DNA from: Dickeya solani IPO 2222
GTDB taxonomy: Bacteria > Pseudomonadota > Gammaproteobacteria > Enterobacterales > Enterobacteriaceae
DNA length: 32,000 nt
Direction: 5' to 3'
Assembly: GCF_001644705.1 (NCBI RefSeq)
Contig: NZ_CP015137.1
Location: 2,610,001-2,642,000 of the forward strand
Positions within the stretch are counted from its first letter, which is position 1. The number at the start of each line of letters is the position of its first letter. The notes under the pieces were generated by a model. That model saw only the letters and a list, made by a program, of their open reading frames with translations. It searched no databases and had not been told where the DNA came from. The position numbers and the translations under genes were made by a program. Shown one piece after another: positions 1 through 25,659 of this stretch.

Positions 1-2
1 TT

Positions 3-839
3 GCCGACCTGAAAACCAAAGACCTGCTGGAGCCGCTGAAAGTCGTCGAACAAAACGGCCATCTTGATTTAGCGTCACGACTGCGCCAGCGCGTCACCGA
101 TATTATGCGTTACGCGGTGCAGAATGACCTGATAGAGCGCAACCCCGCGCAAGACCTCTCCGGCGCGATAGCCGCGCCAAAAGCTACCCATCGGCCAGCC
201 CTGAAGCTGAATAAACTGCCGGATTTTCTGGCACGGATAGAACGCCACAAAGGGCGAGCGTTAACCAAACTGGCCTTAAAACTCACGCTGTGCGTTTTTA
301 TCCGCTCCAGTGAGCTACGTTTTACCCGCTGGCCGGAAATCGATTTTAAACGTGCCATGTGGACGATACCGGCTGAACGTGAAGCCATTCCCGACGTGAA
401 GCATTCGCAGCGCGGCGCAAAGATGCGCTCTGAACATCTGGTGCCGTTATCCCGACAGGCTTTAGCGCTGCTGGAAGAGATTAAGGCCATCAGCGGTGCT
501 CATGAGCTGATTTTCCCCGGCGATCGTCGGCCAACTAAACCGATGAGTGAAAACACCGTCAACAACGCATTACGAACCATGGGCTATGACACCACTACCG
601 AAGTGTGCGGACACGGCTTCCGCACCATGGCCTGTAGCGCACTGGTGGAGTCCGGCCAGTGGTCGCGGGATGCGGTAGAGCGCCAGATGAGTCATCAGGA
701 ACGTAATGGCGTTCGTGCTGCCTACATCCACAAAGCGGAGCATCTGGATGAGCGTAGGCTAATGCTGCAATGGTGGGCGGATTATCTGGATGCGAACAGG
801 GAAGCGTATGTGGTGGCGTATGAGTATAACCCCATTTGA
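3..839 (+). CDS. int: P4-type tyrosine integrase, C-terminal part (gene begins upstream of the window)
   Basis: Frame 3 is open from nt 3 (ADLKTKDLLEPLKVVEQNGHLDLASRL...) and runs into track ORF 105..839. It carries FIRSSELRF (Arg box), HGFRT (H-x-x-R) and VRAAYIH (catalytic Tyr region). It is clearly paralogous to the integrase at 12932..14193. Confidence 0.9.
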   Translation, partial: ADLKTKDLLEPLKVVEQNGHLDLASRLRQRVTDIMRYAVQNDLIERNPAQDLSGAIAAPKATHRPALKLNKLPDFLARIERHKGRALTKLALKLTLCVFIRSSELRFTRWPEIDFKRAMWTIPAEREAIPDVKHSQRGAKMRSEHLVPLSRQALALLEEIKAISGAHELIFPGDRRPTKPMSENTVNNALRTMGYDTTTEVCGHGFRTMACSALVESGQWSRDAVERQMSHQERNGVRAAYIHKAEHLDERRLMLQWWADYLDANREAYVVAYEYNPI

Positions 840-930: not shown

Positions 931-2163
931 ATGAAAATATTGGTAATAAGTGATTTGCATGTTGGAAAAACTGCCCGCGCTAAAGATTTCTGCACTCTGA
1001 GCAGTGACGCTACGTCTGCGATTACAGAGAATTTTATTGAAGATTTCAGAGAATTGGTTCAGTCAGAAAATCTCAGCGCAACACATTTATTAATCGCCGG
1101 TGATATGACGAATAGTGGGGAAATACCTGAATTTGAAATGGCAGCTGAGAGGATACAAGACATAATAAATATTTTGAGTATTGATCTCAAGAACGTTTAT
1201 TTTGTTCCTGGCAATCATGATGGAAATTGGGGGCATGAGAAAGAATCCTCAAAAAGAGGAGATAAGATAGAAAAAACTAGAGAAGCAAAATATCTTAATA
1301 TAAAAAGCAATGATTTTTTTTCGAGTGTTTTAAATAACACAAGTTTTTCTTCATATTATAAGGACCCATTCTCAGCTATTTGGGAAAGTGATAACATTAT
1401 TGTCGTTGGTGTAAACTCTTCAGCATATGATAGCTGTGATAAAGAGGTTAAGTTTGGAGAAGTCGATTTAAAATGCCTTGATGCATTACAGAAGAAGCTT
1501 CTCGAAATGAAAAAAAAGAAAGATAGACGCCTTAAAATTCTACTAACACATCATCATCCAAAAATTTATACGGATAGAACTTTTGCTGATGCAGATTTAA
1601 GTCAAATGAAGAATGCAGAGGACTTCTTACATTTTGCCAGTAAGAATGAGTTTGACTTTATCGTACATGGTCACAAACACATTCCTCGCTTTAACTTTCA
1701 AGTTGATTCAGATGGTTATGCGGTAAATATTCTTAGTGCAGGAAGTTTTAGTGCCCAATTAAAAGATTGGCATAATGGAGTTGCTAATTTTATTCATTTA
1801 ATTGAACATCATGACTTTTGTCCGGAAAATAATTATTCAAGAGGTAGGGTAATATCATGGTCATATTTTACAAATCATAAATGGAAACATTCTCAATATG
1901 ATAGAGATATGATTAACCATGAGGAGTATTTTGGAAGTGTGCTATCTAAAAATAAACTTAAAGCTATCTTGAAAAGAGAAATTTCCGAGTGGAAGGCTAC
2001 TAAAAAATATGTGAAATGGACTGATGTTGTATTGAAAGAGGATAGCTTGAAGTATTGTAACAGGATGCTATTGTCAAGTGTAATTGATGATTTGTCACAA
2101 GAGTTACAATATGAAGTAATGCCAAGTAGAAATGATGATTTTGTTTTGTTATGGGCGGAATAG
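931..2163 (+). CDS. Calcineurin-like metallophosphoesterase with an uncharacterised C-terminal extension (410 aa)
   Basis: All five MPE motifs are present: D8-L-H10, G57-D58, G94-N-H-D97, H207-H-H209, G247-H-K-H250. The DNA is AT-rich. This is the first gene of a tightly packed three-gene operon 92 nt downstream of int. Confidence 0.85.
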   Translation: MKILVISDLHVGKTARAKDFCTLSSDATSAITENFIEDFRELVQSENLSATHLLIAGDMTNSGEIPEFEMAAERIQDIINILSIDLKNVYFVPGNHDGNWGHEKESSKRGDKIEKTREAKYLNIKSNDFFSSVLNNTSFSSYYKDPFSAIWESDNIIVVGVNSSAYDSCDKEVKFGEVDLKCLDALQKKLLEMKKKKDRRLKILLTHHHPKIYTDRTFADADLSQMKNAEDFLHFASKNEFDFIVHGHKHIPRFNFQVDSDGYAVNILSAGSFSAQLKDWHNGVANFIHLIEHHDFCPENNYSRGRVISWSYFTNHKWKHSQYDRDMINHEEYFGSVLSKNKLKAILKREISEWKATKKYVKWTDVVLKEDSLKYCNRMLLSSVIDDLSQELQYEVMPSRNDDFVLLWAE

Positions 2164-2167
2164 CATT

Positions 2168-3934
2168 ATGAATTATAATGACATTAGTACACTATTCGAA
2201 AGTTCAAACGCAAGAAGCCTGAACTCAAATCAGCTTACAAGTGAATTTATCTGGACAGAATCATTTGATTTGCTTTTTTCAAGTCAAAATCAAGTTATTT
2301 TGGGATCTAGAGGGTCTGGGAAGACTGCCTTAATTAAAATGCTTTCACATGATAACCTTAGTAAATTGGCAACTCATTATCCTAAGGCTAAAGAAATAAT
2401 TGACTCAAGGAAATTTATAGCTACATACGTTCCTTTAAGAGTTGAATGGGTAAACTCTTTGAATAACTTCGAAGAGAAAAAGGAAGAGTATTTTGTTTGG
2501 AGTCTAAATTTATCTTTATGCGCTAAGCTGTTAGACACAATAAGAAGTTGCATTGATTTTTATCTATATGATGAGTTTGAACAATTTACAATCGAAAAAA
2601 ATATTTGCAAGGAAATATCAGGAATATGGTTTTCAGATAATATTTTTAATAATTTAAATTCAATCCGAGACGAGCTAGAAAGAACTGAGTATAGAAAAAA
2701 CTTAGCCTTTAATAAAGAGTCAATGAATATTGAACTATCAAATGATGAGAAAATAATCGGCGAAAGTTTTCATACTACTTTATTTAAGCCATTTGAGTAT
2801 GCGGCTAGAATTACAAAACGATTATTGAGTCTTCCGGAAGAGAGTAAATGGATTATTTGTATTGACGAAGCTGAGTTTCTAACTAAATCACATCATAAAA
2901 CGCTGAATACATTTATGCGTTCAGCAAGTGAGCTTGTTTTTAAAATTACGACTATGCCATATAGACATCATACTTTAAATACTGATGTTAATGCCAATAT
3001 TAATATTGGACATGATTTAGAGTATGTTTATATTGATAAGCTTGGGACATCACAATTAAATCAGCAAACATCGGATAAAGTAATTCAGGAGTTTGCAGAA
3101 AAGCTTTTTTTAAATCGTTTGAAATTTCATGGGGAAAATGAAATTTCATTTGAAGATCTAGTTGGAAAATCTGTTCTGACTCAATCAACACCAGATATCG
3201 CTGAGTTAAATTATGTAATTGAATTAATAAATAAGCATTGTAACGAAGAAACTGTAAAAAGGGCTGAAGTATTGTTCTCAACTAATATAGGAAGTTTTGA
3301 TGATGCGATCGTAAGAAAATTACGAGGGTTACTATTGTTAAGGGAGGAGTATAATAACAAGTCAGGAAATTCTTCATCCTCACTGTACTCGGGTGTCGCA
3401 ATTATTTCTAGATGCTCTGATGGCAATCCAAGACGGCTCTTTAGATTATTTAACCATCTTTTAAGTAATTTGAAAGAACAAAAGAATAGAATATCTAATA
3501 CTAGTCAAAGTGAGCGGTTGAAAAGTTATTCATACAGGGAGTTAGAAGTTATAAAATTTGAAAAAGATGGTGTGAATGCATTTAATTTTATAAATAAAAT
3601 AGGTGGGTATTTTAGAGATAAAAGCCTTGTGGAAAAAATAGGCACAGATACACCTCAGTCTTTCGTTATTGATGGTACGATTTCTGATGAACATTGGAAT
3701 AGCATAAAAACAGCTGTTGATTTAGGGTTGATTTACCCTTATATAAAAAAGGATAGAAATGCTAAGTCATTATTTCCATCAAGAGAGGGGCGATTTATCA
3801 TAGCTAACTGCTTGGCACCCAATTTTAACCTTTTCCCCAGAGTTGGCAGACCTGTTAGATTTCATAATATATTTCGCAATACTAATACCTCTAATGAAGA
3901 AGATCAATTGGAGCTTTTTTCTGATGAAGATTAA
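2168..3934 (+). CDS. P-loop NTPase (588 aa), family unassigned
   Basis: Walker A is ILGSRGSGKT (G46..T53). Walker B is WIICIDEAEF (D233-E234), about 180 aa later. A distal GNPRRLFRLFN motif is reminiscent of KAP/ORC-type NTPases. The ATG at 2168 lies 4 nt after the upstream stop, and the track start at 2132 would overlap gene 1. Confidence 0.8.
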   Translation: MNYNDISTLFESSNARSLNSNQLTSEFIWTESFDLLFSSQNQVILGSRGSGKTALIKMLSHDNLSKLATHYPKAKEIIDSRKFIATYVPLRVEWVNSLNNFEEKKEEYFVWSLNLSLCAKLLDTIRSCIDFYLYDEFEQFTIEKNICKEISGIWFSDNIFNNLNSIRDELERTEYRKNLAFNKESMNIELSNDEKIIGESFHTTLFKPFEYAARITKRLLSLPEESKWIICIDEAEFLTKSHHKTLNTFMRSASELVFKITTMPYRHHTLNTDVNANINIGHDLEYVYIDKLGTSQLNQQTSDKVIQEFAEKLFLNRLKFHGENEISFEDLVGKSVLTQSTPDIAELNYVIELINKHCNEETVKRAEVLFSTNIGSFDDAIVRKLRGLLLLREEYNNKSGNSSSSLYSGVAIISRCSDGNPRRLFRLFNHLLSNLKEQKNRISNTSQSERLKSYSYRELEVIKFEKDGVNAFNFINKIGGYFRDKSLVEKIGTDTPQSFVIDGTISDEHWNSIKTAVDLGLIYPYIKKDRNAKSLFPSREGRFIIANCLAPNFNLFPRVGRPVRFHNIFRNTNTSNEEDQLELFSDED

Positions 3935-4874
3935 AATACTAGATATATCTCGAACTGAATTATTAAGTTCAAAATATGACATTGCCTTTATTGGATTAGG
4001 ATATGAACCTCGTTGCACATATATCTCAAAAATACTGGATATTGATGCAGTAGGAAAAGTTGTTGCTTTTTCTTTTGTTGAGAGTAAAGAAAATTCGAAT
4101 AAAATCAAAAGCCACGAATACCTTTTAAAAAAATGGTCTAACAAAATGAATATGATAGAGTTAGAACATTCTAATGTAAAAGAAGTTTATAGTACCCTTA
4201 ATAAATATCTTTGTACGATAGAAAAAGATATTATACATATACTAATCGATTATAGCTCGATGTCCAGGAATTGGTATTCTGCTATATTGAATTATGTCAT
4301 TCGGTTCTTTCCAAAAAAAATTATTATTGACTTGGTCTATTCGTCAGCAGAATACCCAAAGAATGATGAATTTTATGATTTTGAATTAGGTGATATAAAA
4401 ATTTTACCTGGATGTGAAGGATCATCAATAACAAAGAAAAAGAAATGTGCTATTTTTATGTTGGGGTTTGATAATGTTGGCCCACAAAGTTTTTTTAACC
4501 TTTTAGAACCAGAATTAAGTTTTGGTGTTATTGCATCTCCTGGAGCATTGCCTGATTATGAAAAAATTGCTTTCACCCGTAATCAGTATTTTATAGATCA
4601 TCAGTTGTTAGAAGGTAAAAACTTACTTAAATTACCCATTTCAAGTTTAGCTGTCACATTTGAAAATTTATGCCAATTAATTCAGCCTCTTAGGGTGGAC
4701 TATAACATATCTATTATCCAGTTTGGACCAAAGCCACATATTGTTGCATCTACTTTAGCCGGTATATTTTTTGAAAATGTGAGCTGTATTTATAGTGAGT
4801 ATAATAGATCAAAACCTTTTGATGTTGTACATAATGGTGAGCTGGTTATATCAAGAATATTCTCTGATAAGTGA
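3924..4874 (+). CDS. Hypothetical protein (316 aa), third gene of the MPE/NTPase operon
   Basis: It is a long ORF in the same AT-rich codon style. The ATG at 3924 (MKIKILDISR...) follows GGAG at 3910..3913 and overlaps the NTPase stop by 11 nt. I recognise no motif. The alternating hydrophobic/helical pattern suggests an alpha/beta fold. Confidence 0.65.
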   Translation: MKIKILDISRTELLSSKYDIAFIGLGYEPRCTYISKILDIDAVGKVVAFSFVESKENSNKIKSHEYLLKKWSNKMNMIELEHSNVKEVYSTLNKYLCTIEKDIIHILIDYSSMSRNWYSAILNYVIRFFPKKIIIDLVYSSAEYPKNDEFYDFELGDIKILPGCEGSSITKKKKCAIFMLGFDNVGPQSFFNLLEPELSFGVIASPGALPDYEKIAFTRNQYFIDHQLLEGKNLLKLPISSLAVTFENLCQLIQPLRVDYNISIIQFGPKPHIVASTLAGIFFENVSCIYSEYNRSKPFDVVHNGELVISRIFSDK

Positions 4875-8562: not shown

Positions 8563-8876
8563 GCAACTTCCCCCTAATATTCAACTGGATGCTTTTCTCT
8601 GGCGCGTGGGAAAAGGCAGACACAATCAAATTGACCTGCCTTGAACGATACCTGTGCGCCAGAGCGGAAAGCAGTTGAGGTCTTGGGAGGTGTCGGCTAT
8701 GCACTCGGTGCGGCCGCCCGCAGTTGCAGGTTTTCCTCTCAGGCTGTTAGGCCTGCCTCGGTATCGGTTTAATCTCCTGTAAAAAAAGCGATCAGTCCGG
8801 CACAAACGGGTGTGTCAGATTCATGACGCATGGGTTGACGTGGCTTATCTCGGGGGTTGATGCAGTCTCAGGCTGC

Positions 8877-8915: not shown

Positions 8916-9570
8916 GGTGCAGACGTTGCAGGCAGGCGCATAGCAGATGCCTGACGGCATAGCAGCGCGCAGCCAGCACGTTCACACGTGCAGACGCTAA
9001 TCATTGAGACGAAAAAGTCGAAGTTGCACGATAACGTGAACTTACAAGAATAAGCGCTGTTTAAGTCGCCTATGAGGTGAAATCACCACAACGATAAATA
9101 TTGCAGCTACAGGCCAGATCCTACGGTATGGAGGCCGCTCTCTGGCTAGGTATAATGAAGCCCACGGCATTGTTGGGCTTATAGTTAAGTCAAACGGACC
9201 TTAATCACCACGCTCGCAACGGCGTTCAAACGACCCGGTGATCTCTGCTTCCAAAGGCTGGCAGATTTATCACAACGCAACTGTGCGTGTTCTTCCTTGC
9301 AGGCTACGGAAGTGTTTGTGGTCACCCGCAGGCGTCAGTCTCAGACCACGCTCCATTCCCTATGACTTTGGCGTTGTGACCACCCGAAGGCGTTTCTCAC
9401 GGGTCACTCGTATCATCCTGATACTGGAAACATTGGCGGCTGTCATCGACAGCGGTGTTGCGTGGATAAAATTACGACAGAATTTTGCAGACTTCAAGTA
9501 GTTTGAATATTCATCAAAAGGGAGTAATCTAGCACTAAGTGCTATAGTTAAGGGATGGAATGCTGGCCTG

Positions 9571-9930
9571 ATGCGTGTATTCAAAACCAAATGGTTCACT
9601 AAGGCGGCTAAATCCCACGCTATCAAGGATAGCGAGTTATGTCAGGCCATTGAGGCGGTGACTCAGGGGAAAGCTGATGATCTCGGCGGCGGCGTTTACA
9701 AGAAACGTTTTAACCAAAACCGCGATCGCGCCATCATACTGGCGAAAGGTGGGGAACATTGGTTTTACACGTTCCTGTATGCCAAGCAGGATATGGCGAA
9801 CATTGATGATCGTGAACTGGCAGGGTTCCGCGAACTGGCGAAGCACTATGCCAACCTTGCCGATGAAAAGATTACAGCACTGATTAAGCGTAAAGAACTG
9901 GTGGAGATTTGCCATGACTGCAAAAAGTAG
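9571..9930 (+). CDS. RelE/ParE-superfamily toxin (COG4737/DUF1044-like, 119 aa)
   Basis: The pattern FKTKWFTKAAK...DDLGGGVYKKRF...FLYAKQDMANIDDRELAGFRELAKHY matches this toxin family as I remember it. The gene overlaps the downstream HTH gene by 17 nt. Confidence 0.8.
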   Translation: MRVFKTKWFTKAAKSHAIKDSELCQAIEAVTQGKADDLGGGVYKKRFNQNRDRAIILAKGGEHWFYTFLYAKQDMANIDDRELAGFRELAKHYANLADEKITALIKRKELVEICHDCKK

Positions 9931-10237
9931 ATTCAAAAGCCCGGCATTTGAGGCGATTCACAGCGCCGCGTCTGGCTTATTCAGCGTTGATGCCATCCCA
10001 CAAGAAACGATGCGCAATTTTGACAAAGCGTGTCTTAACAGTGTCGAGTCTCTTCAGCCACTGGAAATTAAAGCGCTGCGTGAGAAGTTAAACGTCAGCC
10101 AGCCGGTTTTTGCCCGTTACCTGAACACCAGTGTTTCGACGGTGCAGAAATGGGAAAGCGGCGTAAAACGCCCTAGCGGGTTATCGCTGAAACTGCTTAC
10201 GGTAGTGCAGAAGCATGGGTTGAAGGTGTTGGTTTGA
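9914..10237 (+). CDS. HTH (XRE/COG2944, NadS/MqsA-C-terminal-like) antitoxin (107 aa)
   Basis: LREKLNVSQPVFARYLNTSVSTVQKWESGVKRPSGLSLKLLTVVQKHG is the typical C-terminal HTH of the cognate antitoxins. The gene is coupled to the toxin gene. Confidence 0.8.
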   Translation: MTAKSRFKSPAFEAIHSAASGLFSVDAIPQETMRNFDKACLNSVESLQPLEIKALREKLNVSQPVFARYLNTSVSTVQKWESGVKRPSGLSLKLLTVVQKHGLKVLV

Positions 10238-10628
10238 TTGTGTTGTATTGGCTTATCTTCGGATTGGTCATTTGGGGGGATAAGTTTCGAACTAATTTGA
10301 TTGGCTGTTTAGAGCCAGTAGCAGATGTTGCTAACATCTATGTTTCTTAATAAATAGGGGCATGTTAGTAATATCGTTTTGATAGCTTTGTCGGTTTAAA
10401 AGAAAATAATAGTCTTTTTGAAAAATATAAGATTGTATGTAATGCGCATCCCTTAAATCGCCTGAATGTGCATGTTATTGGTGATCACACACCTGATAAA
10501 ATTCCAGTATTGTCTGCAGTTGTGCTCGGCGTATTATTCTTTTGAGCAAAAAATCTCAGTACAAATCTATATTTGTATGGTAAATGATTTAATGCCTAAT
10601 AATTAGCTAGAGACCTAAAAGGGGAAAG

Positions 10629-11360
10629 ATGTTAAATTATACAGTAATACCTGAGCAGCCCCCTATTGGTTCAGGTACTTATGGATTAGTTGAAAAAGTT
10701 CATTTAAAGAATGGGCACGGCGGTTTATGCAATGAATATGGCTACGCACGTAAAACGCTAATTAATACAAATAATGATCCTGACCTTGTTCAGCGCTTTA
10801 TTAGAGAAATCCGTGCTCAAGATGATTGTTTGCATAAGCATGTTGCACAGATTTTCATATGCGACTTACAGTCCAATCCCCCTTGGTTTATCATGGAGCT
10901 TGCTGAAAGCAGTCTTGAAGAAGAGATTTCAAACAGTGCACTCTCAACGCAAAAAAAAATTGAAATCATAAAGATGATTCTAAAAGGACTAGCATTCATT
11001 CATTCTAAAGGATTTTTGCATAGGGACATTAAACCCCAGAATATTTTGAGATTCCCCGGTGGTATATATAAGCTAACTGATTTTGGACTAGCGAAAAATA
11101 TAAACCCTACAAGAACACAATTTGCTACTAAAGTTGGTGTTTTCTTGGGTACACCAAAATATTTTGATTATGAAATATTTGTTAATGGCTATTCGAATCA
11201 ATCAGACATATACTCAATTGGTGTCCTTCTTGAAGACTTATACTTTGAAGGTCTTGATGATATAATCGCGAGATGTAAACATAGACGTCTTAACAAACGC
11301 TATATAAACGTTAATCAAGTATTGAATGCTATCGAGGAATTAGAGGTGAAGATTAAATGA
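10629..11360 (+). CDS. Minimal Hanks-type Ser/Thr protein kinase (243 aa, kinase domain only)
   Basis: The G-loop is IGSGTYGLV (13..21) and the conserved Lys is in YARK (K42). The catalytic loop is HRDIKPQN (131..138), followed by DFG (151..153) and GTPKYFDYE (174..182). An SD (AAAGGGGAAAG) precedes the ATG. The DNA is AT-rich. Confidence 0.9.
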   Translation: MLNYTVIPEQPPIGSGTYGLVEKVHLKNGHGGLCNEYGYARKTLINTNNDPDLVQRFIREIRAQDDCLHKHVAQIFICDLQSNPPWFIMELAESSLEEEISNSALSTQKKIEIIKMILKGLAFIHSKGFLHRDIKPQNILRFPGGIYKLTDFGLAKNINPTRTQFATKVGVFLGTPKYFDYEIFVNGYSNQSDIYSIGVLLEDLYFEGLDDIIARCKHRRLNKRYINVNQVLNAIEELEVKIK

Positions 11361-12100
11361 TAAAACTACTAGGCTCTTCATCATTTACTTACTCTAAAAA
11401 TGGAATTGATGAAAACCAAGATTGCATTCTTCCTTTTAAAAGGGTGAATGACGGTTTCATGATAGCAGTTGCTGATGGTGTTGGCGGTTACGAAGGGGGG
11501 CTTGACGCTTCATCTTTAGCAGTATCTCAGCTTGAAAAAGTTTATTTTTCATTTAATCGCTCTGATGTCGATAATTTCTTCCATAATTTAAAGGGAAGGC
11601 TGAAAGAGCTATCCAAAAATAATCCAATATTTTTTTCTGCCGCAACCACACTAACATTTTGCTATATTGATAAGAAAGGATTGATGGTTGGGCATTGTGG
11701 AGATTCCAGGCTTTATATTAAGGCCGAAAATAAGCTCGTACAAATAACGAAGGATCAAACCCAGCATCAGATTTTAATTGACAAAGGATTATACACATCG
11801 AGGCAACTCCGTAATCTTATGGGCGGCAATGTTTTAACAAGTGCAATTTCAGCCAAATTAGATTTAGAGTATCAGGTTATAGAAATTCCTACTGAAAACC
11901 TCCCTCTTCAAAATGGAAGCCTAAATATTTTCATTATGTCTGATGGCGCACATTATTATTGGGAAGAACGCCCCCGATTTTCAGAAAAAACTATGGATAA
12001 TCCAGCAAAGTTTGCTGCCAGCTTGCAAAAAAGGATTGAAACCAAAGGACCTCATGATGATTTTTCTTTAGTCTGTCTTAAAGTTAGCTATAAACAATGA
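11357..12100 (+). CDS. PP2C-family Ser/Thr phosphatase (247 aa)
   Basis: The PP2C motifs are AVADGVGG (D40-G41), GHCGDSRLY (D116), IMSDGAHY (D196-G197) and HDDFSLV (D234-D235). The start overlaps the kinase stop (ATGA). Confidence 0.85.
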   Translation: MIKLLGSSSFTYSKNGIDENQDCILPFKRVNDGFMIAVADGVGGYEGGLDASSLAVSQLEKVYFSFNRSDVDNFFHNLKGRLKELSKNNPIFFSAATTLTFCYIDKKGLMVGHCGDSRLYIKAENKLVQITKDQTQHQILIDKGLYTSRQLRNLMGGNVLTSAISAKLDLEYQVIEIPTENLPLQNGSLNIFIMSDGAHYYWEERPRFSEKTMDNPAKFAASLQKRIETKGPHDDFSLVCLKVSYKQ

Positions 12101-12158
12101 ATACTGTAAAGGGGCAGGGTGAAGGTTAAAACTCTCTCATGCCGACCAATAAATGCCT

Positions 12159-12188
12159 AAAAAACCAACCCGTTGCGATTGGTTTTTT
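12159..12188 (+). terminator. Possible weak intrinsic terminator after the PP2C gene
   Basis: In AAAAAACCAA-cccgttgcga-TTGGTTTTTT the A/U-rich stem ends in a T6 run, 59 nt after the stop. Confidence 0.4.
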
Positions 12189-12651
12189 AGGCTTGCTATT
12201 CGGCGATGGCAAAATGATTGTAAAACCCCTGCCATTCTGAGCAGTGATCGGTTCGGCACTTTGCTGCATGAATGTAACATGCAGAACTATTTTTTATAAT
12301 CGTTAAAGTTCGTTTGGGAACGCCACGCAGCTTCATGTTCACTTCAGCCACCGACTATTACGAAAAAATGTTTATCGACATTCAGCAAGTGTGAGAAAAA
12401 ACAAGCCTATATCAGATATGGTCCTTTCTTTCTAAGGGTAGTTTTTGCTACGAGACTGGTTCCGGGTTGTGCCCGAATGTGAATTGCTCCAACTCATCTG
12501 GACATTATACTGTTGCCGTTGAAGCACAACATCTGCTTTTCGCTCTTAACAGAGCATGTCAGATTTACTGGCCTCGTTCGATAAGAAATGGATTAAATTT
12601 CTTCATTTTTTGATTAAAAATAAACCAAAATAGTGTCGTATAAAATATGAA

Positions 12652-12672
12652 GGGGTCAAAATGGTGGTCAAT
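12652..12672 (+). repeat. GGGGTCAA-N5-GGTCAAT motif near the island A right end (candidate integrase arm-type site)
   Basis: GGGGTCAAAATGGTGGTCAAT has an 18/21 match at 23303..23323. A single GGGTCAA also occurs at 12834..12840 upstream of the second integrase. Confidence 0.4.
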
Positions 12673-12723
12673 AAAACTATTTATAAAATTAAATTTATTT
12701 AAAATCAATAAATTAAAAATTAT

Positions 12724-12745
12724 CCCGAGTCCGGCCTTCGCACCA
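12724..12745 (+). other. 3'-terminal tRNA fragment (T-loop half, T-stem, acceptor 3' strand and CCA): att-type direct repeat at the island junction
   Basis: CCCGAGTCCGGCCTTCGCACCA resembles the 3' end of E. coli tRNA-Leu leuX (..TTCGAGTCCGGCCTTCGGCACCA, from memory) with one G missing. tRNA-Phe is a weaker alternative. The upstream DNA is AT-rich and cannot supply the rest of a tRNA. Confidence 0.65.
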
Positions 12746-12931: not shown

Positions 12932-14193
12932 ATGGCGCTTACTGATATCAAAGTCAGAACAGCCAAGCCTTCGGATAAGCAATACAAGCTGACCGACGGC
13001 AGTGGTATGTATCTGCTGGTTCACCCCAATGGCTCAAAGTATTGGCGCTTACAGTACCGTTTTGGCGGTAAACAGAAGATGCTGGCACTGGGGGTTTATC
13101 CTGATGTCTCTCTGGCTGATGCCAGAGCGCGTCGTGATGAAGCGCGTAAGTTATTGGCAAACGGCACTGACCCCGGCGACAAAAAGAAATCCGATAAGAT
13201 TGAACAAAGTGAAGCGTTAACCTTTAAAGAGGTGGCAATAGAATGGCACGCCACCAATAAGAAATGGTCGCAAGAGCACAGTCATCGTGTGCTGAAAAGC
13301 CTGGAAGATAACCTTTTCTCAGCAATAGGCAAACGCAACATCGCCGAGCTTAAAACCCGTGACCTGCTAGCGCCCATCAAAGCGGTAGAGCAGTCAGGCC
13401 GCCTTGAAGTCGCCTCACGGCTCCAGCAACGCACAACCGCGATAATGCACTACGCCGTACAAAGCGGATTAATCGACTACAACCCGGCGCAGGAAATGGC
13501 AGGGGCGGTGGCGTCCAGCAATCGGCAGCATCGCCCGGCACTGGATCTAAAGCGCACGCCCGAACTGCTCCGGCGTATCGATAACTACACCGGCAGACCA
13601 TTAACCCGTCTGGCGGTCGAACTGACGCTATTGATTTTTATCCGCTCCAGCGAACTGCGCTTTGCACGCTGGTCAGAGATAGATTTTGATACCGCCATGT
13701 GGACGATTCCCCCGGAACGCGAATCCATCGACGGTGTAAAACACTCTCACCGTGGCTCAAAAATGCGTACTCCGCATCTGGTGCCGCTTTCCCGGCAGGC
13801 GCTGGCGACGTTGAAACAAATCCAGCAATTTAGCGGCGACCATGAGCTTATCTTTATTGGCGATCACGACCCGCGTAAACCGATGAGTGAGAACACGGTG
13901 AACAAAGCGCTGCGGGTGATGGGATATGACACCAAGGTTGAAGTCTGCGGCCACGGTTTTCGCACCATGGCCTGTAGCTCGTGATCGAGTCGGGCTTATG
14001 GTCGCGTGACGCTGTACAGCGCCAGATGAGCCATATGGAGCGTAACTCGGTACGTGCGGCCTACATCCACAAAGCCGAGCACCTGGATGAACGCAAACTG
14101 ATGCTGCAATGGTGGGCGGATTATCTCGATGCGAATCGGGAGAGGGCAGTGAGTGCGTTTGATTTTGGGAAAGTTAGTAATCAACTAAAATAG
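12932..14193 (+). pseudogene. int: P4-type tyrosine integrase disrupted by a 1-nt frameshift before the catalytic Tyr region
   Basis: Track ORFs 12932..13984 and 13981..14193 are contiguous halves. The first ends ...GHGFRTMACSS-stop and the second begins IESGLWSRDAVQRQMSH..VRAAYIH. Integrase 1 reads through the equivalent position (ACSALVESGQWSRDAVERQMSH). The N-terminus MALTDIKVRTAKP...YWRLQYRFGGKQK is the typical DUF4102 arm-binding domain. Confidence 0.85.
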
Positions 14194-25204: not shown

Positions 25205-25659
25205 TGCTAGATAGTTATGCCATCGCGCCTTCAGGTTCCAAGCTAAAGGTGTGACCCAGACAGGGTTGGAACACCGGATCTAGCGACCGGCCAACCTTAC
25301 GGTTGCCCTGCCTGAGCCACGGATTAGAGTGTGCACGTAGCCCCTGAAAAAACAAAGCGTTTTCCAGTTCCAGATGTTCGGGGTTCCACGCCCGGCTGCG
25401 GATGTAGCCGCAGCACAGACACTCTATGCCAGCCGCTAACCGGGTGAAAGGTTCTGGATGGATTTACAGTGGATTGCGAAGCATTTTGGAATGCCGCTCG
25501 CAAAACGGGCCAGAATTGCTCCCTAAAAACTGTCGCTGGCAGGTCGCGCTAGCCCTCTGCAACTCCCCATTCCCCACCCGCTTTTCCCTATTTGCCGCCG
25601 GGGGAGTTTGCCTGCGCCGGATTATGGTGTGAAGACATTTATCTGTCGGGAGATACACC

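What the first reader, a model, noticed from the sequence alone, without database searches (positions are those of the whole stretch)
10629..12100. Stand-alone minimal Ser/Thr kinase translationally coupled to a PP2C phosphatase in the second AT-rich cargo slot
- **Kinase:** the 243-aa protein is only a Hanks kinase domain with all catalytic motifs intact and no sensor, TM or repeat domain.
- **Coupling:** its stop overlaps the start of a complete PP2C phosphatase (ATGA).
- **Context:** the pair sits in AT-rich DNA between a toxin-antitoxin module and the island attR, followed by about 530 nt with no convincing gene.
- **Related known systems:** kinase-based anti-phage systems exist (Stk2-type kinases, and the TerY-P triad of TerY/vWA + PP2C + kinase). 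No TerY/vWA, FHA or other third gene is present here.
- **Hypothesis:** a kinase (toxic effector) held in check by a cognate phosphatase would work like a toxin-antitoxin or abortive-infection switch.
Basis: partly seen in the sequence, partly recalled or inferred. Interest (0 to 1): 0.68.

Follow-up and report, generated by a model that had tools for sequence, protein, structure and literature searches.

The report
Mobile two-gene kinase–phosphatase cassette
A bare protein kinase and its matching phosphatase form a small two-gene cassette that moves between phages, phage satellites and genomic islands and usually sits where those elements keep anti-phage genes, so it is probably a stripped-down relative of the known kinase-kinase-phosphatase (KKP) defence system, though nobody has tested it.

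Summary
Window 10629-11360 encodes a 243-aa kinase that is only a Hanks catalytic domain. Window 11357-12100 encodes a 247-aa PP2C phosphatase, and the two genes overlap by ATGA. Catalytic residues are invariant in both protein families.

The host is Dickeya solani. The pair lies at the far end of a tRNA-Leu island, after a RelE/HTH toxin-antitoxin pair and about 625 nt before the attR copy at 12726-12740.

The same kinase-then-PP2C pair was found in 15 genomic settings:
- It is always two genes, tightly joined and more AT-rich than its flanks.
- No vWA/TerY, FHA or other conserved third gene appears in any of them.
- Twelve settings are phages, satellites or integrase islands, including the P2 gpA-gpQ defence hotspot and the lambda rexAB and stx positions.

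An 1.86-kb block, made of leader, both genes and a hairpin, is 82% identical to the cassette in a Klebsiella P2 hotspot.

It is not TerY-P, KKP or PD-T4-6 by their defining features. It most likely works like KKP, with a toxic kinase restrained by a phosphatase antitoxin.

Function is inferred, not shown. I rate it a new variant of a known kind, of moderate interest.

The parts
10328..12185 (+). Mobile cassette unit: about 300 nt of leader, the kinase gene, the PP2C gene and a 3' hairpin.
   Evidence: One blastn segment of 1873 columns is 82% identical to L107 6977-8825, the cassette in the gpA-gpQ hotspot of a Klebsiella P2-like prophage. Homology stops at both ends.
10510..10537 (+). Promoter-like site, TTGTCT-16 nt-TATTAT. 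It lies in the best-conserved part of the leader.
   Evidence: The consensus scan finds it. Both hexamers, and the upstream block CCTGATAAAAT-CCAGTATTG, are conserved in L107, while the rest of the leader diverges and carries no conserved ORF. This is a consensus match only and is unproven.
10629..11360 (+). Minimal Hanks-type Ser/Thr kinase of 243 aa. It is the proposed toxic effector.
   Evidence: Pfam Pkinase at 4.6e-33. Catalytic residues are invariant, and so is the activation-loop T167. The AF2 model has pLDDT 88 and its nearest PDB matches are PknB kinase domains. The catalytic loop HRDIKPQN is of the Ser/Thr type (sequence).
10951..10959 (+). A9 homopolymer inside the kinase gene, where some D. 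solani assemblies carry a frameshift.
   Evidence: The tract was located. Cluster members P0247 (113 aa, ending ...STQKKLKS) and P0249 (128 aa) lie on one D. solani chromosome and split exactly at this tract. The tract is absent from the Klebsiella copy. The frameshifts could be sequencing errors.
11343..11360 (+). Coupling junction: GAGG Shine-Dalgarno inside the kinase 3' end, then the ATGA start/stop overlap.
   Evidence: Read directly from the sequence. All ten loci printed show a GAGG/GGAG-like motif upstream of the PP2C start. In all 12 loci measured the junction is a 1-13 nt overlap or a gap of at most 2 nt.
11357..12100 (+). PP2C (PPM) Ser/Thr phosphatase of 247 aa. It is the proposed antagonist or antitoxin.
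   Evidence: Pfam PP2C_2 at 2e-8. Metal-binding Asp residues are invariant. The AF2 model has pLDDT 92 and matches PstP, Stp1 and tPphA. A profile search against PDB gives PstP and Stp1 at 5e-20.
12155..12192 (.). Hairpin with 16 pairs and flanking A/T runs. It is probably a bidirectional terminator closing the operon, and the cassette homology ends here.
   Evidence: The terminator scan finds it. A CCAAC...GTTGG stem is kept in L107. Homology with L107 ends at 12185.
12726..12740 (+). attR: a direct-repeat copy of the tRNA-Leu(CAA) 3' end, marking the island boundary. This is context, not part of the cassette.
   Evidence: The tRNA-Leu lies at L111 2349-2433, upstream of the first integrase. 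There is one exact 15-nt match in the window, against 0 expected by chance.

Best explanation
I propose that this is a self-contained, horizontally mobile kinase-phosphatase ('KP') cassette acting as a phosphorylation-based toxin-antitoxin or abortive-infection/exclusion switch. It would be a one-kinase, minimal counterpart of the KKP system.

**Proposed mechanism**
1. One promoter drives a bicistronic mRNA, and translational coupling fixes the ratio of kinase to phosphatase.
2. The kinase is a bare Hanks catalytic domain with an invariant activation-loop Thr (T167). It would activate itself by autophosphorylation and then phosphorylate host and/or phage proteins broadly.
3. In uninfected cells the PP2C strips the activation-loop phosphate and the substrate phosphates, keeping the system silent.
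4. Infection tips the balance, most plausibly because a phage protein blocks the phosphatase, as T4 Gp59 does to PfpC in KKP. Unchecked kinase activity then arrests the cell or the phage.

**Shown here**
- Domains and intact catalytic residues in both proteins.
- A conserved two-gene architecture with tight coupling.
- Mobility at the level of the cassette.
- Accessory, AT-rich status and recurrent placement in phage and satellite cargo slots.

**Inferred**
- Kinase toxicity.
- Antagonism by dephosphorylation.
- The trigger.
- The defence phenotype.
For: **Two coherent, small families**
- The kinase family is about 65 clusters of 240-260 aa. Scores then drop sharply to generic kinases.
- The PP2C family has about 21 representatives above 200 bits among 1.84 billion proteins.
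- Catalytic residues are invariant in both.

**The pair behaves as one unit**
- The kinase-to-PP2C order and a junction of at most 13 nt overlap or 2 nt gap hold in all 12 loci measured.
- Kinase and PP2C identities co-vary across loci (r=0.85).
- The cassette is 6-19 GC points below its flanks everywhere.
- An 1.86-kb block is shared at 82% between the Dickeya island and a Klebsiella P2 prophage.

**Location**
- P2 gpA-gpQ hotspot, the site of old/tin (Rousset 2022, PMC9122126).
- Directly downstream of the cI-like repressor in two different E. coli prophages, which is the rexAB position.
- Between Q and the lysis genes, which is the stx position, in phage phiES15 and in E. coli E24377A.
- Between Rz and terS in phage Flotzy and a Morganella prophage.
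- In the variable slot of satellite-like elements carrying AlpA and primase genes in Klebsiella and Raoultella.
- At a satellite edge next to YafO or Abi_2 in Pasteurella.
- In an integrase island in Aeromonas.
- In this window it lies beside a RelE toxin-antitoxin pair, and a type I restriction-modification system begins about 2.4 kb downstream in the adjacent second island.

**Other points**
- It is rare: 35 of 5426 complete E. coli genomes carry it.
- Mechanistic precedent exists. KKP is a PP2C-antitoxin/kinase-toxin defence system triggered when a phage protein inhibits the phosphatase (PMC11341870).
Against: - There are no experimental data for any member of this family. Toxicity and defence are inferred from context and analogy.
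- In KKP neither kinase is toxic alone, and toxicity needs the CSD and FHA domains. This kinase has neither, so the analogy may fail exactly at the effector step.
- Three of the 15 settings are small chromosomal islets with no mobile-element or defence gene within 7 kb.
- In four phage or prophage genomes the cassette lies in the late-operon direction, which also fits a role in the phage's own lytic cycle.
- No orphan-gene statistics could be gathered to test whether the kinase is ever tolerated without the phosphatase.
Confidence: 0.55

Rival explanations
1. The pair is a regulatory or maintenance module of the mobile element rather than an immune system. It would tune host physiology or the element's own lysogeny and excision by phosphorylating a host regulator such as an H-NS-like silencer, or it would simply act as an addiction module that stabilises the element.
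For: - KKP itself controls Pf prophage induction through phosphorylation of MvaU (PMC11341870).
- The cassette sits right next to the immunity repressor in two E. coli prophages.
- It is AT-rich DNA of the kind H-NS silences.
- In the window it lies at the island end beside another toxin-antitoxin pair.
Against: - The same cassette occurs in elements with unrelated regulation: P2-like and lambdoid phages, satellites, integrase islands and bare chromosomal islets. It is hard to see one shared regulatory target for all of them.
- Its positions coincide with slots known to hold exclusion or defence genes.
- This rival is not exclusive of defence, since KKP does both.
Confidence: 0.2
2. The pair is a host-takeover module used by the phage itself. 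The kinase would be made during lytic growth to reprogramme host proteins, as the T7 Gp0.7 kinase does (my own knowledge, not tested here), and the phosphatase would limit or time that activity.
For: In phiES15, E24377A, Flotzy and the Morganella prophage the cassette lies downstream of Q or of the lysis genes. It is on the late-gene strand there, so late transcription would read through it.
Against: - The cassette carries its own conserved promoter-like site and a terminator hairpin, the layout of an independently expressed accessory gene.
- In other prophages it is on the repressor's strand at the rexAB position.
- It persists in non-phage islands and chromosomal islets, such as the Dickeya window and Acinetobacter, where there is no lytic cycle.
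Confidence: 0.12
3. The pair is an ordinary cellular signalling pair, like PrkC/PrpC (Stk1/Stp1) or PknB/PstP, that merely happens to lie in an island.
For: - The nearest curated families and structures are Stk1/PknB for the kinase and Stp1/PstP for the phosphatase.
- Three chromosomal islets have no neighbouring mobile-element genes.
Against: - There is no sensor, transmembrane or PASTA domain.
- All NCBIfam scores fall far below the family cut-offs, 104 against 450 and 92 against 230.
- The housekeeping operon has the opposite gene order and a conserved rlmN...rsgA neighbourhood.
- The cassette is rare, patchy, AT-rich and moves between phages.
Confidence: 0.05
4. The pair is a decayed remnant of a larger known system, either a TerY-P triad that lost its vWA gene or a KKP that lost one kinase.
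For: Both systems combine Hanks kinases with a PP2C, and KKP is found in P2/P4 prophages.
Against: - The two-gene form is intact and identical in layout in 15 settings across Enterobacterales, Pasteurellaceae, Aeromonas and Acinetobacter.
- No vWA, FHA or CSD domain was found in or near any of them.
- The 487-aa neighbour in the Klebsiella hotspot has no remnant in the window.
- The gene order, kinase then PP2C, is the opposite of the one described for KKP.
Confidence: 0.03

Closest known systems
KKP (PfpC PP2C phosphatase with the PfkA and PfkB kinases) of Pf6, P2, P4 and Mu-like prophages (Guo et al. 2024, PMC11341870).
   Same: - Hanks-type Ser/Thr kinase(s) are encoded next to a PF13672 PP2C.
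- It is carried mostly by prophages and satellites, including P2/P4.
- KKP has been shown to be a kinase-toxin/phosphatase-antitoxin system that defends against lytic phages, with a phage protein inhibiting the phosphatase as the trigger.
- The likely logic here is the same.
   Different: - Here there is one kinase, not two.
- The kinase is a bare 243-aa catalytic domain, without the CSD (PfkA) or FHA (PfkB) domains that KKP toxicity requires.
- The PP2C is a 247-aa single domain.
- Gene order is kinase then PP2C, with overlapping codons.
PD-T4-6 (Vassallo et al. 2022, PMC9519451).
   Same: It is a Hanks-type Ser/Thr kinase from an accessory region that defends E. coli. PADLOC's PD-T4-6 models hit the window kinase at up to 5e-33.
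   Different: - PD-T4-6 is a single 436-aa protein with the kinase domain at about residues 9-284 and a C-terminal extension. It was cloned and is active without a phosphatase.
- The models are not specific: a housekeeping PASTA kinase scores 5e-132 on them.
- The window kinase matches only the catalytic core, positions 38-202 of 292.
TerY-P triad (TerY/vWA + PP2C + kinase; Gao et al. 2020, from my own knowledge).
   Same: It combines a Ser/Thr kinase and a PP2C phosphatase in a defence context.
   Different: - No vWA/TerY gene is present in the window or in any related locus.
- The PP2C hits no PADLOC model other than a weak PDC-M21C match at 1.5e-3.
Stk2 of Staphylococcus, and Stk of phage 933W (Depardieu 2016 and Friedman 2011; both are cited in PMC9122126, and the functional details are from my own knowledge).
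   Same: - Each is a lone eukaryote-like kinase causing abortive infection when a phage protein activates it.
- 933W stk lies in the immunity region, as the E. coli copies of this cassette do.
   Different: - Neither has a partner phosphatase.
- Similarity is only generic: Stk2 model 1e-22, and 933W-type stk 52 bits over 90 residues.
Housekeeping PrkC/PrpC (Stk1/Stp1) and PknB/PstP pairs.
   Same: - These are the best structural and profile matches for both proteins.
- PstP-type dephosphorylation of the kinase activation loop is the model for how the PP2C would silence this kinase (established knowledge, not tested here).
   Different: - Those kinases carry transmembrane and PASTA sensor domains.
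- Their genes are core, in phosphatase-then-kinase order, inside a conserved operon.

Membership tests
KKP (kinase-kinase-phosphatase) | Two adjacent Ser/Thr kinase genes. | tested here: not met
   There is one kinase ORF in the window, and one in all 15 related settings.
KKP (kinase-kinase-phosphatase) | A PfkA-like kinase fused to a cold-shock domain and a PfkB-like kinase fused to an FHA domain (PMC11341870). | tested here: not met
   Pfam finds only Pkinase/PK_Tyr_Ser-Thr in the 243-aa protein. The AF2 model is a single kinase fold.
KKP (kinase-kinase-phosphatase) | An adjacent PF13672 PP2C phosphatase. | tested here: met
   PP2C_2 at E=2e-8, above Pfam's gathering score (34.5 against 24 bits).
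KKP (kinase-kinase-phosphatase) | Kinase toxicity neutralised by the phosphatase, and defence against lytic phages. | not testable with these tools
   This needs expression and phage-challenge experiments.
TerY-P | A TerY/vWA-domain gene next to the kinase and the PP2C. | tested here: not met
   No vWA domain appears among the genes within 5 kb or more on either side in the window, or in any related locus.
TerY-P | The phosphatase matches the system's own profile. | tested here: not met
   The PADLOC scan of the PP2C returns only PDC-M21C at 1.5e-3.
PD-T4-6 | A single-gene system: a roughly 436-aa kinase with a C-terminal extension that is active alone. | tested here: not met
   The reference protein RRM76169.1 is 1311 nt and was cloned alone. 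The window kinase is 243 aa and always paired with a PP2C.
PD-T4-6 | A specific match to the PD-T4-6 profiles. | tested here: inconclusive
   The hit is 5e-33 but covers only profile positions 38-202 of 292. In a control, housekeeping PrkC scores 5e-132 on the same models, so a hit is not diagnostic.
MADS (mad6 kinase) | A multi-gene methylation-associated system, with full-length mad6 of about 610-660 aa. | tested here: not met
   The hit covers only the kinase core, positions 58-246 of 659. The NCBIfam MAD6 score is 75 bits against a cut-off of 460. No other mad genes are adjacent.
Stk1/Stp1 (PrkC/PrpC) housekeeping pair | A PASTA-domain membrane kinase and an Stp1 phosphatase scoring above the NCBIfam cut-offs. 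| tested here: not met
   Scores are 103.9 against 450 bits and 92.5 against 230 bits. No PASTA or transmembrane region is present.
Hanks-type (eukaryote-like) Ser/Thr protein kinase superfamily | Gly-rich loop, VAIK Lys, helix-C Glu, HRDxKxxN, DFG, and an APE-like Glu. | tested here: met
   G14-x-G16-x-x-G19, K42, E60, H131-R-D-I-K-P-Q-N138, D151-F-G153 and ...DYE are present and invariant or nearly so.
PPM/PP2C phosphatase superfamily | Conserved metal-binding aspartates in the motifs NxD, DGxGG, GDS/CR, DG and DD/DN. | tested here: met
   D22, D40-G41, G115-D116, D196-G197 and D234-D235 are invariant in 26-30 relatives. The fold matches PstP with TM 0.80.

The most novel reading that the evidence does not exclude
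The cassette is the minimal form of a phosphorylation-based immune switch: one sensor-less kinase catalytic domain plus one PP2C.

- The phosphatase, not the kinase, would be the phage sensor. It would act as a guarded antitoxin that phage proteins inhibit.
- The released kinase alone would be enough to abort infection.

If true, this would show that the CSD and FHA domains and the second kinase of KKP are dispensable elaborations. It would also define a separate, widely mobile two-gene defence family found in the P2 hotspot and at the lambda rex and stx positions. In D. solani the A9 tract in the kinase might additionally switch the system on and off.
Probability: 0.3. Interest if true: 0.65.

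Novelty: new variant of a known kind. Interest (0 to 1): 0.5.

Why it matters
- **Simplest case of its kind.** If the cassette defends against phages, it would be the simplest known kinase/phosphatase immune module, about 1.9 kb with two single-domain enzymes. That would make it a tractable system for asking how phosphorylation-based toxin-antitoxin defences sense infection and which substrates matter.
- **Annotation.** Current tools would probably label the kinase 'PD-T4-6'. I show that this label is non-specific, because housekeeping PrkC scores far higher on the same models, so such calls should be treated with caution.
- **Dickeya solani.** This is a potato pathogen for which phage biocontrol is pursued (my own knowledge). 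The tRNA-Leu island carries several candidate defence loads, and a type I restriction-modification system follows in the adjacent island. Together these could limit the host range of therapeutic phages.

Tried and rejected
- **Genome-collection scan.** I did the neighbourhood work through exact-protein look-ups instead.
- **E. coli megablast.** A search with the window cassette found nothing. A 'distant' search with an E. coli homologue was needed.
- **Candidate KKP comparators.** The weak phosphatase-then-kinase hits in 'Bacteriophage sp.' records looked usable. The one I checked, MT835604, turned out to be a Firmicutes rlmN-prpC-prkC-rsgA chromosomal fragment. I used it as a housekeeping control, and I obtained no KKP sequence.
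- **Third-gene hypotheses.** The 487-aa PNP_UDP-like neighbour in the Klebsiella P2 hotspot has no remnant in the window. The 46-aa leader ORF at 10466-10606 is not conserved.
- **933W Stk relationship.** The match is only generic, 52 bits.
- **Fold searches.** These returned only generic kinase and PP2C neighbours and gave no functional lead.
- **Rfam.** It found nothing inside the cassette or the gap at 12101-12725.
- **Literature.** Searches found KKP but no paper on this two-gene family. The library lacks most subscription journals, so a prior description cannot be excluded.
Full report
**1. Observation**

The junction reads GAGGTGAAGATTAAATGATAAAA. The PP2C start codon ATG (11357-11359) and the kinase stop codon TGA (11358-11360) share ATGA, and a GAGG Shine-Dalgarno sequence sits 10 nt upstream.

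Pfam assigns the first protein only to Pkinase (4.6e-33, residues 12-206) and the second to PP2C_2 (2e-8, above the gathering score).

I aligned 33 members of the kinase family. The following are invariant:
- the Gly-loop residues G16 and G19;
- K42 and E60;
- H131-R132-D133, K135 and N138;
- D151-F152-G153;
- the activation-loop T167;
- D193 and G198.

R224 is nearly invariant. The catalytic loop HRDIKPQN is of the Ser/Thr type.

In the phosphatase family the metal-binding residues D22, D40-G41, G115-D116, D196-G197 and D234-D235 are invariant.

The AlphaFold models are confident:
- The kinase has pLDDT 88 and pTM 0.86. It is a single compact kinase fold with only the activation loop 155-172 disordered. 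Its best PDB neighbours are PknB kinase domains.
- The PP2C has pLDDT 92. Its best neighbours are PstP, Stp1 and tPphA, and a profile search against PDB sequences agrees.

So the protein really is a minimal kinase with nothing attached, coupled to a complete PP2C.

**2. Where it sits**

The exact kinase sequence occurs in chromosomes of about 4.92 Mb. The neighbouring LptG is an exact Dickeya solani protein.

The gene order across the locus is as follows:
1. lptG, then tRNA-Leu(CAA).
2. A P4-type integrase, whose end lies at window 1..839.
3. Metallophos, ORC/CDC6-like and a third gene, at 931-4874.
4. An element core with HTH, DUF2442, AAA_25, AlpA and Integrase_1 genes, running to 8562.
5. 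A RelE-family toxin (9571-9930) and an HTH antitoxin (9914-10237).
6. The kinase and the PP2C.
7. A second, frameshifted P4-type integrase (12932-13984 plus 13981-14193).
8. hsdMSR, from 14520.

A 15-nt exact copy of the tRNA-Leu 3' end lies at 12726-12740, with none expected by chance. The pair is the last cargo of a tRNA-Leu island of about 13.5 kb, and a second, older island follows in tandem.

The stretch 12101-12725 has no convincing ORF and no Rfam match. Cassette GC is 35.7% against 49% in its flanks.

**3. The pair is a mobile two-gene cassette**

Both proteins belong to small, sharply bounded families.
- The kinase family has about 65 clusters of 240-260 aa at E<=1e-29. Scores then fall abruptly to generic kinases.
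- A PP2C profile finds about 21 representatives above 200 bits among 1.84 billion proteins, followed by a looser tier of 235-240-aa PP2Cs.

I examined 15 independent genomic settings.

| # | Host or phage | Position of the pair |
|---|---|---|
| 1 | D. solani | End of the tRNA-Leu island |
| 2 | Klebsiella, P2-like prophages | Between gpA and portal gpQ |
| 3 | Raoultella | Satellite-like element |
| 4 | Klebsiella | Satellite-like elements with AlpA and primase genes, varying flanks |
| 5 | E. coli, Rac-like prophage | Directly after the HTH repressor |
| 6 | E. coli SCU-113, lambda-like prophage at icd | S24 repressor, kinase, PP2C, then kil-gam-bet-exo |
| 7 | E. coli E24377A | Q, kinase, PP2C, then methylase, tRNAs and holin |
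| 8 | Cronobacter phage phiES15 | Q, kinase, PP2C, then lysis genes |
| 9 | E. coli phage Flotzy | Rz, kinase, PP2C, then terS |
| 10 | Morganella prophage | Same slot as Flotzy |
| 11 | Pasteurella multocida | Satellite edge beside YafO or Abi_2 |
| 12 | Aeromonas | Integrase island |
| 13 | Acinetobacter | Chromosomal islet |
| 14 | Metagenome contigs (a source labels the kinase 'Bacilli bacterium'; the neighbours look Gram-negative to me) | Chromosomal islet |
| 15 | Pectobacterium | Chromosomal islet |

In every setting the unit is kinase followed by PP2C and nothing else is conserved. No vWA/TerY, FHA or CSD domain and no second kinase appears.

Across the 12 loci I measured:
- the gene junction is a 1-13 nt overlap or a gap of at most 2 nt;
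- the cassette is 6-19 GC points below its flanks;
- kinase-kinase and PP2C-PP2C identities co-vary (Pearson r=0.85 over 66 non-independent pairs).

A GAGG/GGAG motif precedes the PP2C start in each of the ten loci printed.

At the DNA level, window 10328-12185 aligns as one block, 82% identical, to the Klebsiella P2-hotspot cassette, and the flanks are unrelated. The block contains a roughly 300-nt leader. Its only strongly conserved part includes a promoter-like TTGTCT-16 nt-TATTAT at 10510-10537. The block ends in a hairpin at 12155-12192 whose stem is maintained in Klebsiella. This is the layout of an independently expressed accessory gene carried by a phage: its own promoter, two genes and a terminator.

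**4. What the locations say**

Rousset et al. identify the interval between gpA and gpQ in P2-like phages, where P2 carries old and tin, as a hotspot of anti-phage systems (PMC9122126). The closest relatives of the window pair (kinase 91%, PP2C 89%) sit exactly there.

The position directly downstream of the cI-type repressor is where lambda carries rexAB. The position between Q and the lysis genes is where Stx phages carry stx. Both of these statements rest on established phage genetics and were not tested here.

The cassette is rare, found in 35 of 5426 complete E. coli genomes. Relatives are not mainly core or non-defence genes, and a TerY-like gene is not routinely adjacent.

**5. Comparison with known systems**

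*PADLOC profiles.* These hit the kinase strongly: mad6 at 3.6e-40, PD-T4-6 at up to 5e-33 and Stk2 at 1e-22. The PP2C gets only PDC-M21C at 1.5e-3. The kinase hits are not diagnostic:
- They cover just the catalytic core.
- A housekeeping PASTA kinase from a Firmicutes rlmN-prpC-prkC-rsgA operon scores 5e-132 on the same PD-T4-6 models.

*PD-T4-6.* The real PD-T4-6 is a single 436-aa kinase cloned without any phosphatase.

*NCBIfam.* It has no model that either protein passes. The best are Stk1 at 104 bits against a cut-off of 450 and Stp1 at 92 against 230.

*KKP.* This is the closest characterised system and has these properties (PMC11341870):
- a PF13672 PP2C (PfpC) plus two kinases, PfkA with a CSD domain and PfkB with an FHA domain;
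- more than 1200 clusters, about 90% of them in prophages including P2 and P4;
- shown to be a tripartite toxin-antitoxin system in which the phosphatase is the antitoxin;
- shown to defend against T4 and T-odd phages, with T4 Gp59 inhibiting the phosphatase.

The window pair fails KKP's defining features. It has one kinase, no CSD or FHA domain, and the opposite gene order. It is not a member, but KKP is the best model for how it works.

*A looser tier.* PP2Cs of the looser tier can also follow a kinase. In L122 a 443-aa kinase overlaps a 235-aa PP2C next to HNH and HATPase genes. This suggests that 'kinase then PP2C' is a wider architecture of which this family is the minimal form.

**6. Mechanism: committed view**

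I consider the following most likely (probability about 0.55).
1. The cassette is transcribed from its own promoter.
2. Coupled translation sets the ratio of kinase to phosphatase.
3. The kinase autophosphorylates on the invariant T167 and would phosphorylate many targets.
4. The PP2C reverses this, in the way PstP acts on PknB (established biochemistry for those proteins, inferred here).
5. Infection disables or outpaces the phosphatase, and kinase activity stops the cell or the phage.

The weak point is the effector step. KKP toxicity needs both kinases and their accessory domains, and this kinase lacks them.

The rivals, in order of weight:
- a regulatory or addiction role for the mobile element (0.2);
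- a role in the phage's own lytic programme, suggested by the late-operon orientation in four phage or prophage genomes (0.12);
- ordinary signalling (0.05);
- a decayed larger system (0.03).

**7. Verdict**

I rate it a new variant of a known kind, with interest about 0.5. It is a clean, small and widely mobile candidate that is cheap to test.

The literature search covered only the held library, so an existing description in a subscription journal cannot be excluded.

Noticed in passing
window 931-4874: The first cargo slot of the same island holds three overlapping genes: Metallophos, ORC/CDC6-like (PF24389, 6.5e-98) and a 343-aa protein. The 343-aa protein has no Pfam hit, but it matches PADLOC's CARF6 model end to end at 9.4e-165. 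This looks like a separate candidate defence operon.
   Followed up: partly
window 10951-10959: The kinase gene contains an A9 run. At least one D. solani chromosome encodes the kinase as two fragments (113 aa and 128 aa) broken exactly there, and a Logan assembly shows another frame change at the same tract. The tract is absent from the Klebsiella copy. This could be a real on/off switch or inactivation, or a homopolymer sequencing error.
   Followed up: partly
window 8642-8772 (-) and 9269-9454 (-): Rfam finds an EFASI RNA (108 bits) and a STAXI RNA (53 bits) in the gap between the Integrase_1 gene and the RelE toxin. Both motifs are described from mobile elements.
   Followed up: no
window 25245-25328 (-): Rfam finds a C4 antisense RNA (55 bits, above the gathering score). 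This hints at a P1/P7- or P4-type immunity region further along the window.
   Followed up: no
window 12932-14193; 643-823 vs 13982-14162: The second P4-type integrase is split by a frameshift (350 aa plus 70 aa). Its 3' end is a 78%-identical repeat of the first integrase's 3' end. This fits two tandem islands at one tRNA-Leu site, the second of them immobilised.
   Followed up: partly
L107 9253-10716: In the Klebsiella P2 hotspot the cassette is followed by a 487-aa protein. It has a weak PNP_UDP_1 (nucleoside phosphorylase) N-terminal match and no counterpart in the window. It may be a separate hotspot gene.
   Followed up: partly
L122 5670-7708: A more distant PP2C of 235 aa is overlapped by a 443-aa kinase with a C-terminal extension, next to HNH and HATPase_c_3 genes. 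The kinase-then-PP2C layout therefore extends beyond the minimal family, and this kinase is about the size of PD-T4-6.
   Followed up: no
L113 (MT835604.1 18500-26500): A record filed as 'Bacteriophage sp.' carries rlmN, prpC, a PASTA kinase (prkC) and rsgA. That is a conserved Firmicutes chromosomal operon, so this part of the record looks bacterial rather than phage. PADLOC's PD-T4-6 models score its PrkC at 5e-132, which shows those models are generic.
   Followed up: yes
L090 vs L089/L091: In Pasteurella multocida the pair keeps the same right-hand core neighbours (MFS, mobB, rseABC). On the left the neighbours are either a satellite-like element or core selA/selB genes. The cassette can therefore remain when the adjacent element is absent or different.
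   Followed up: no
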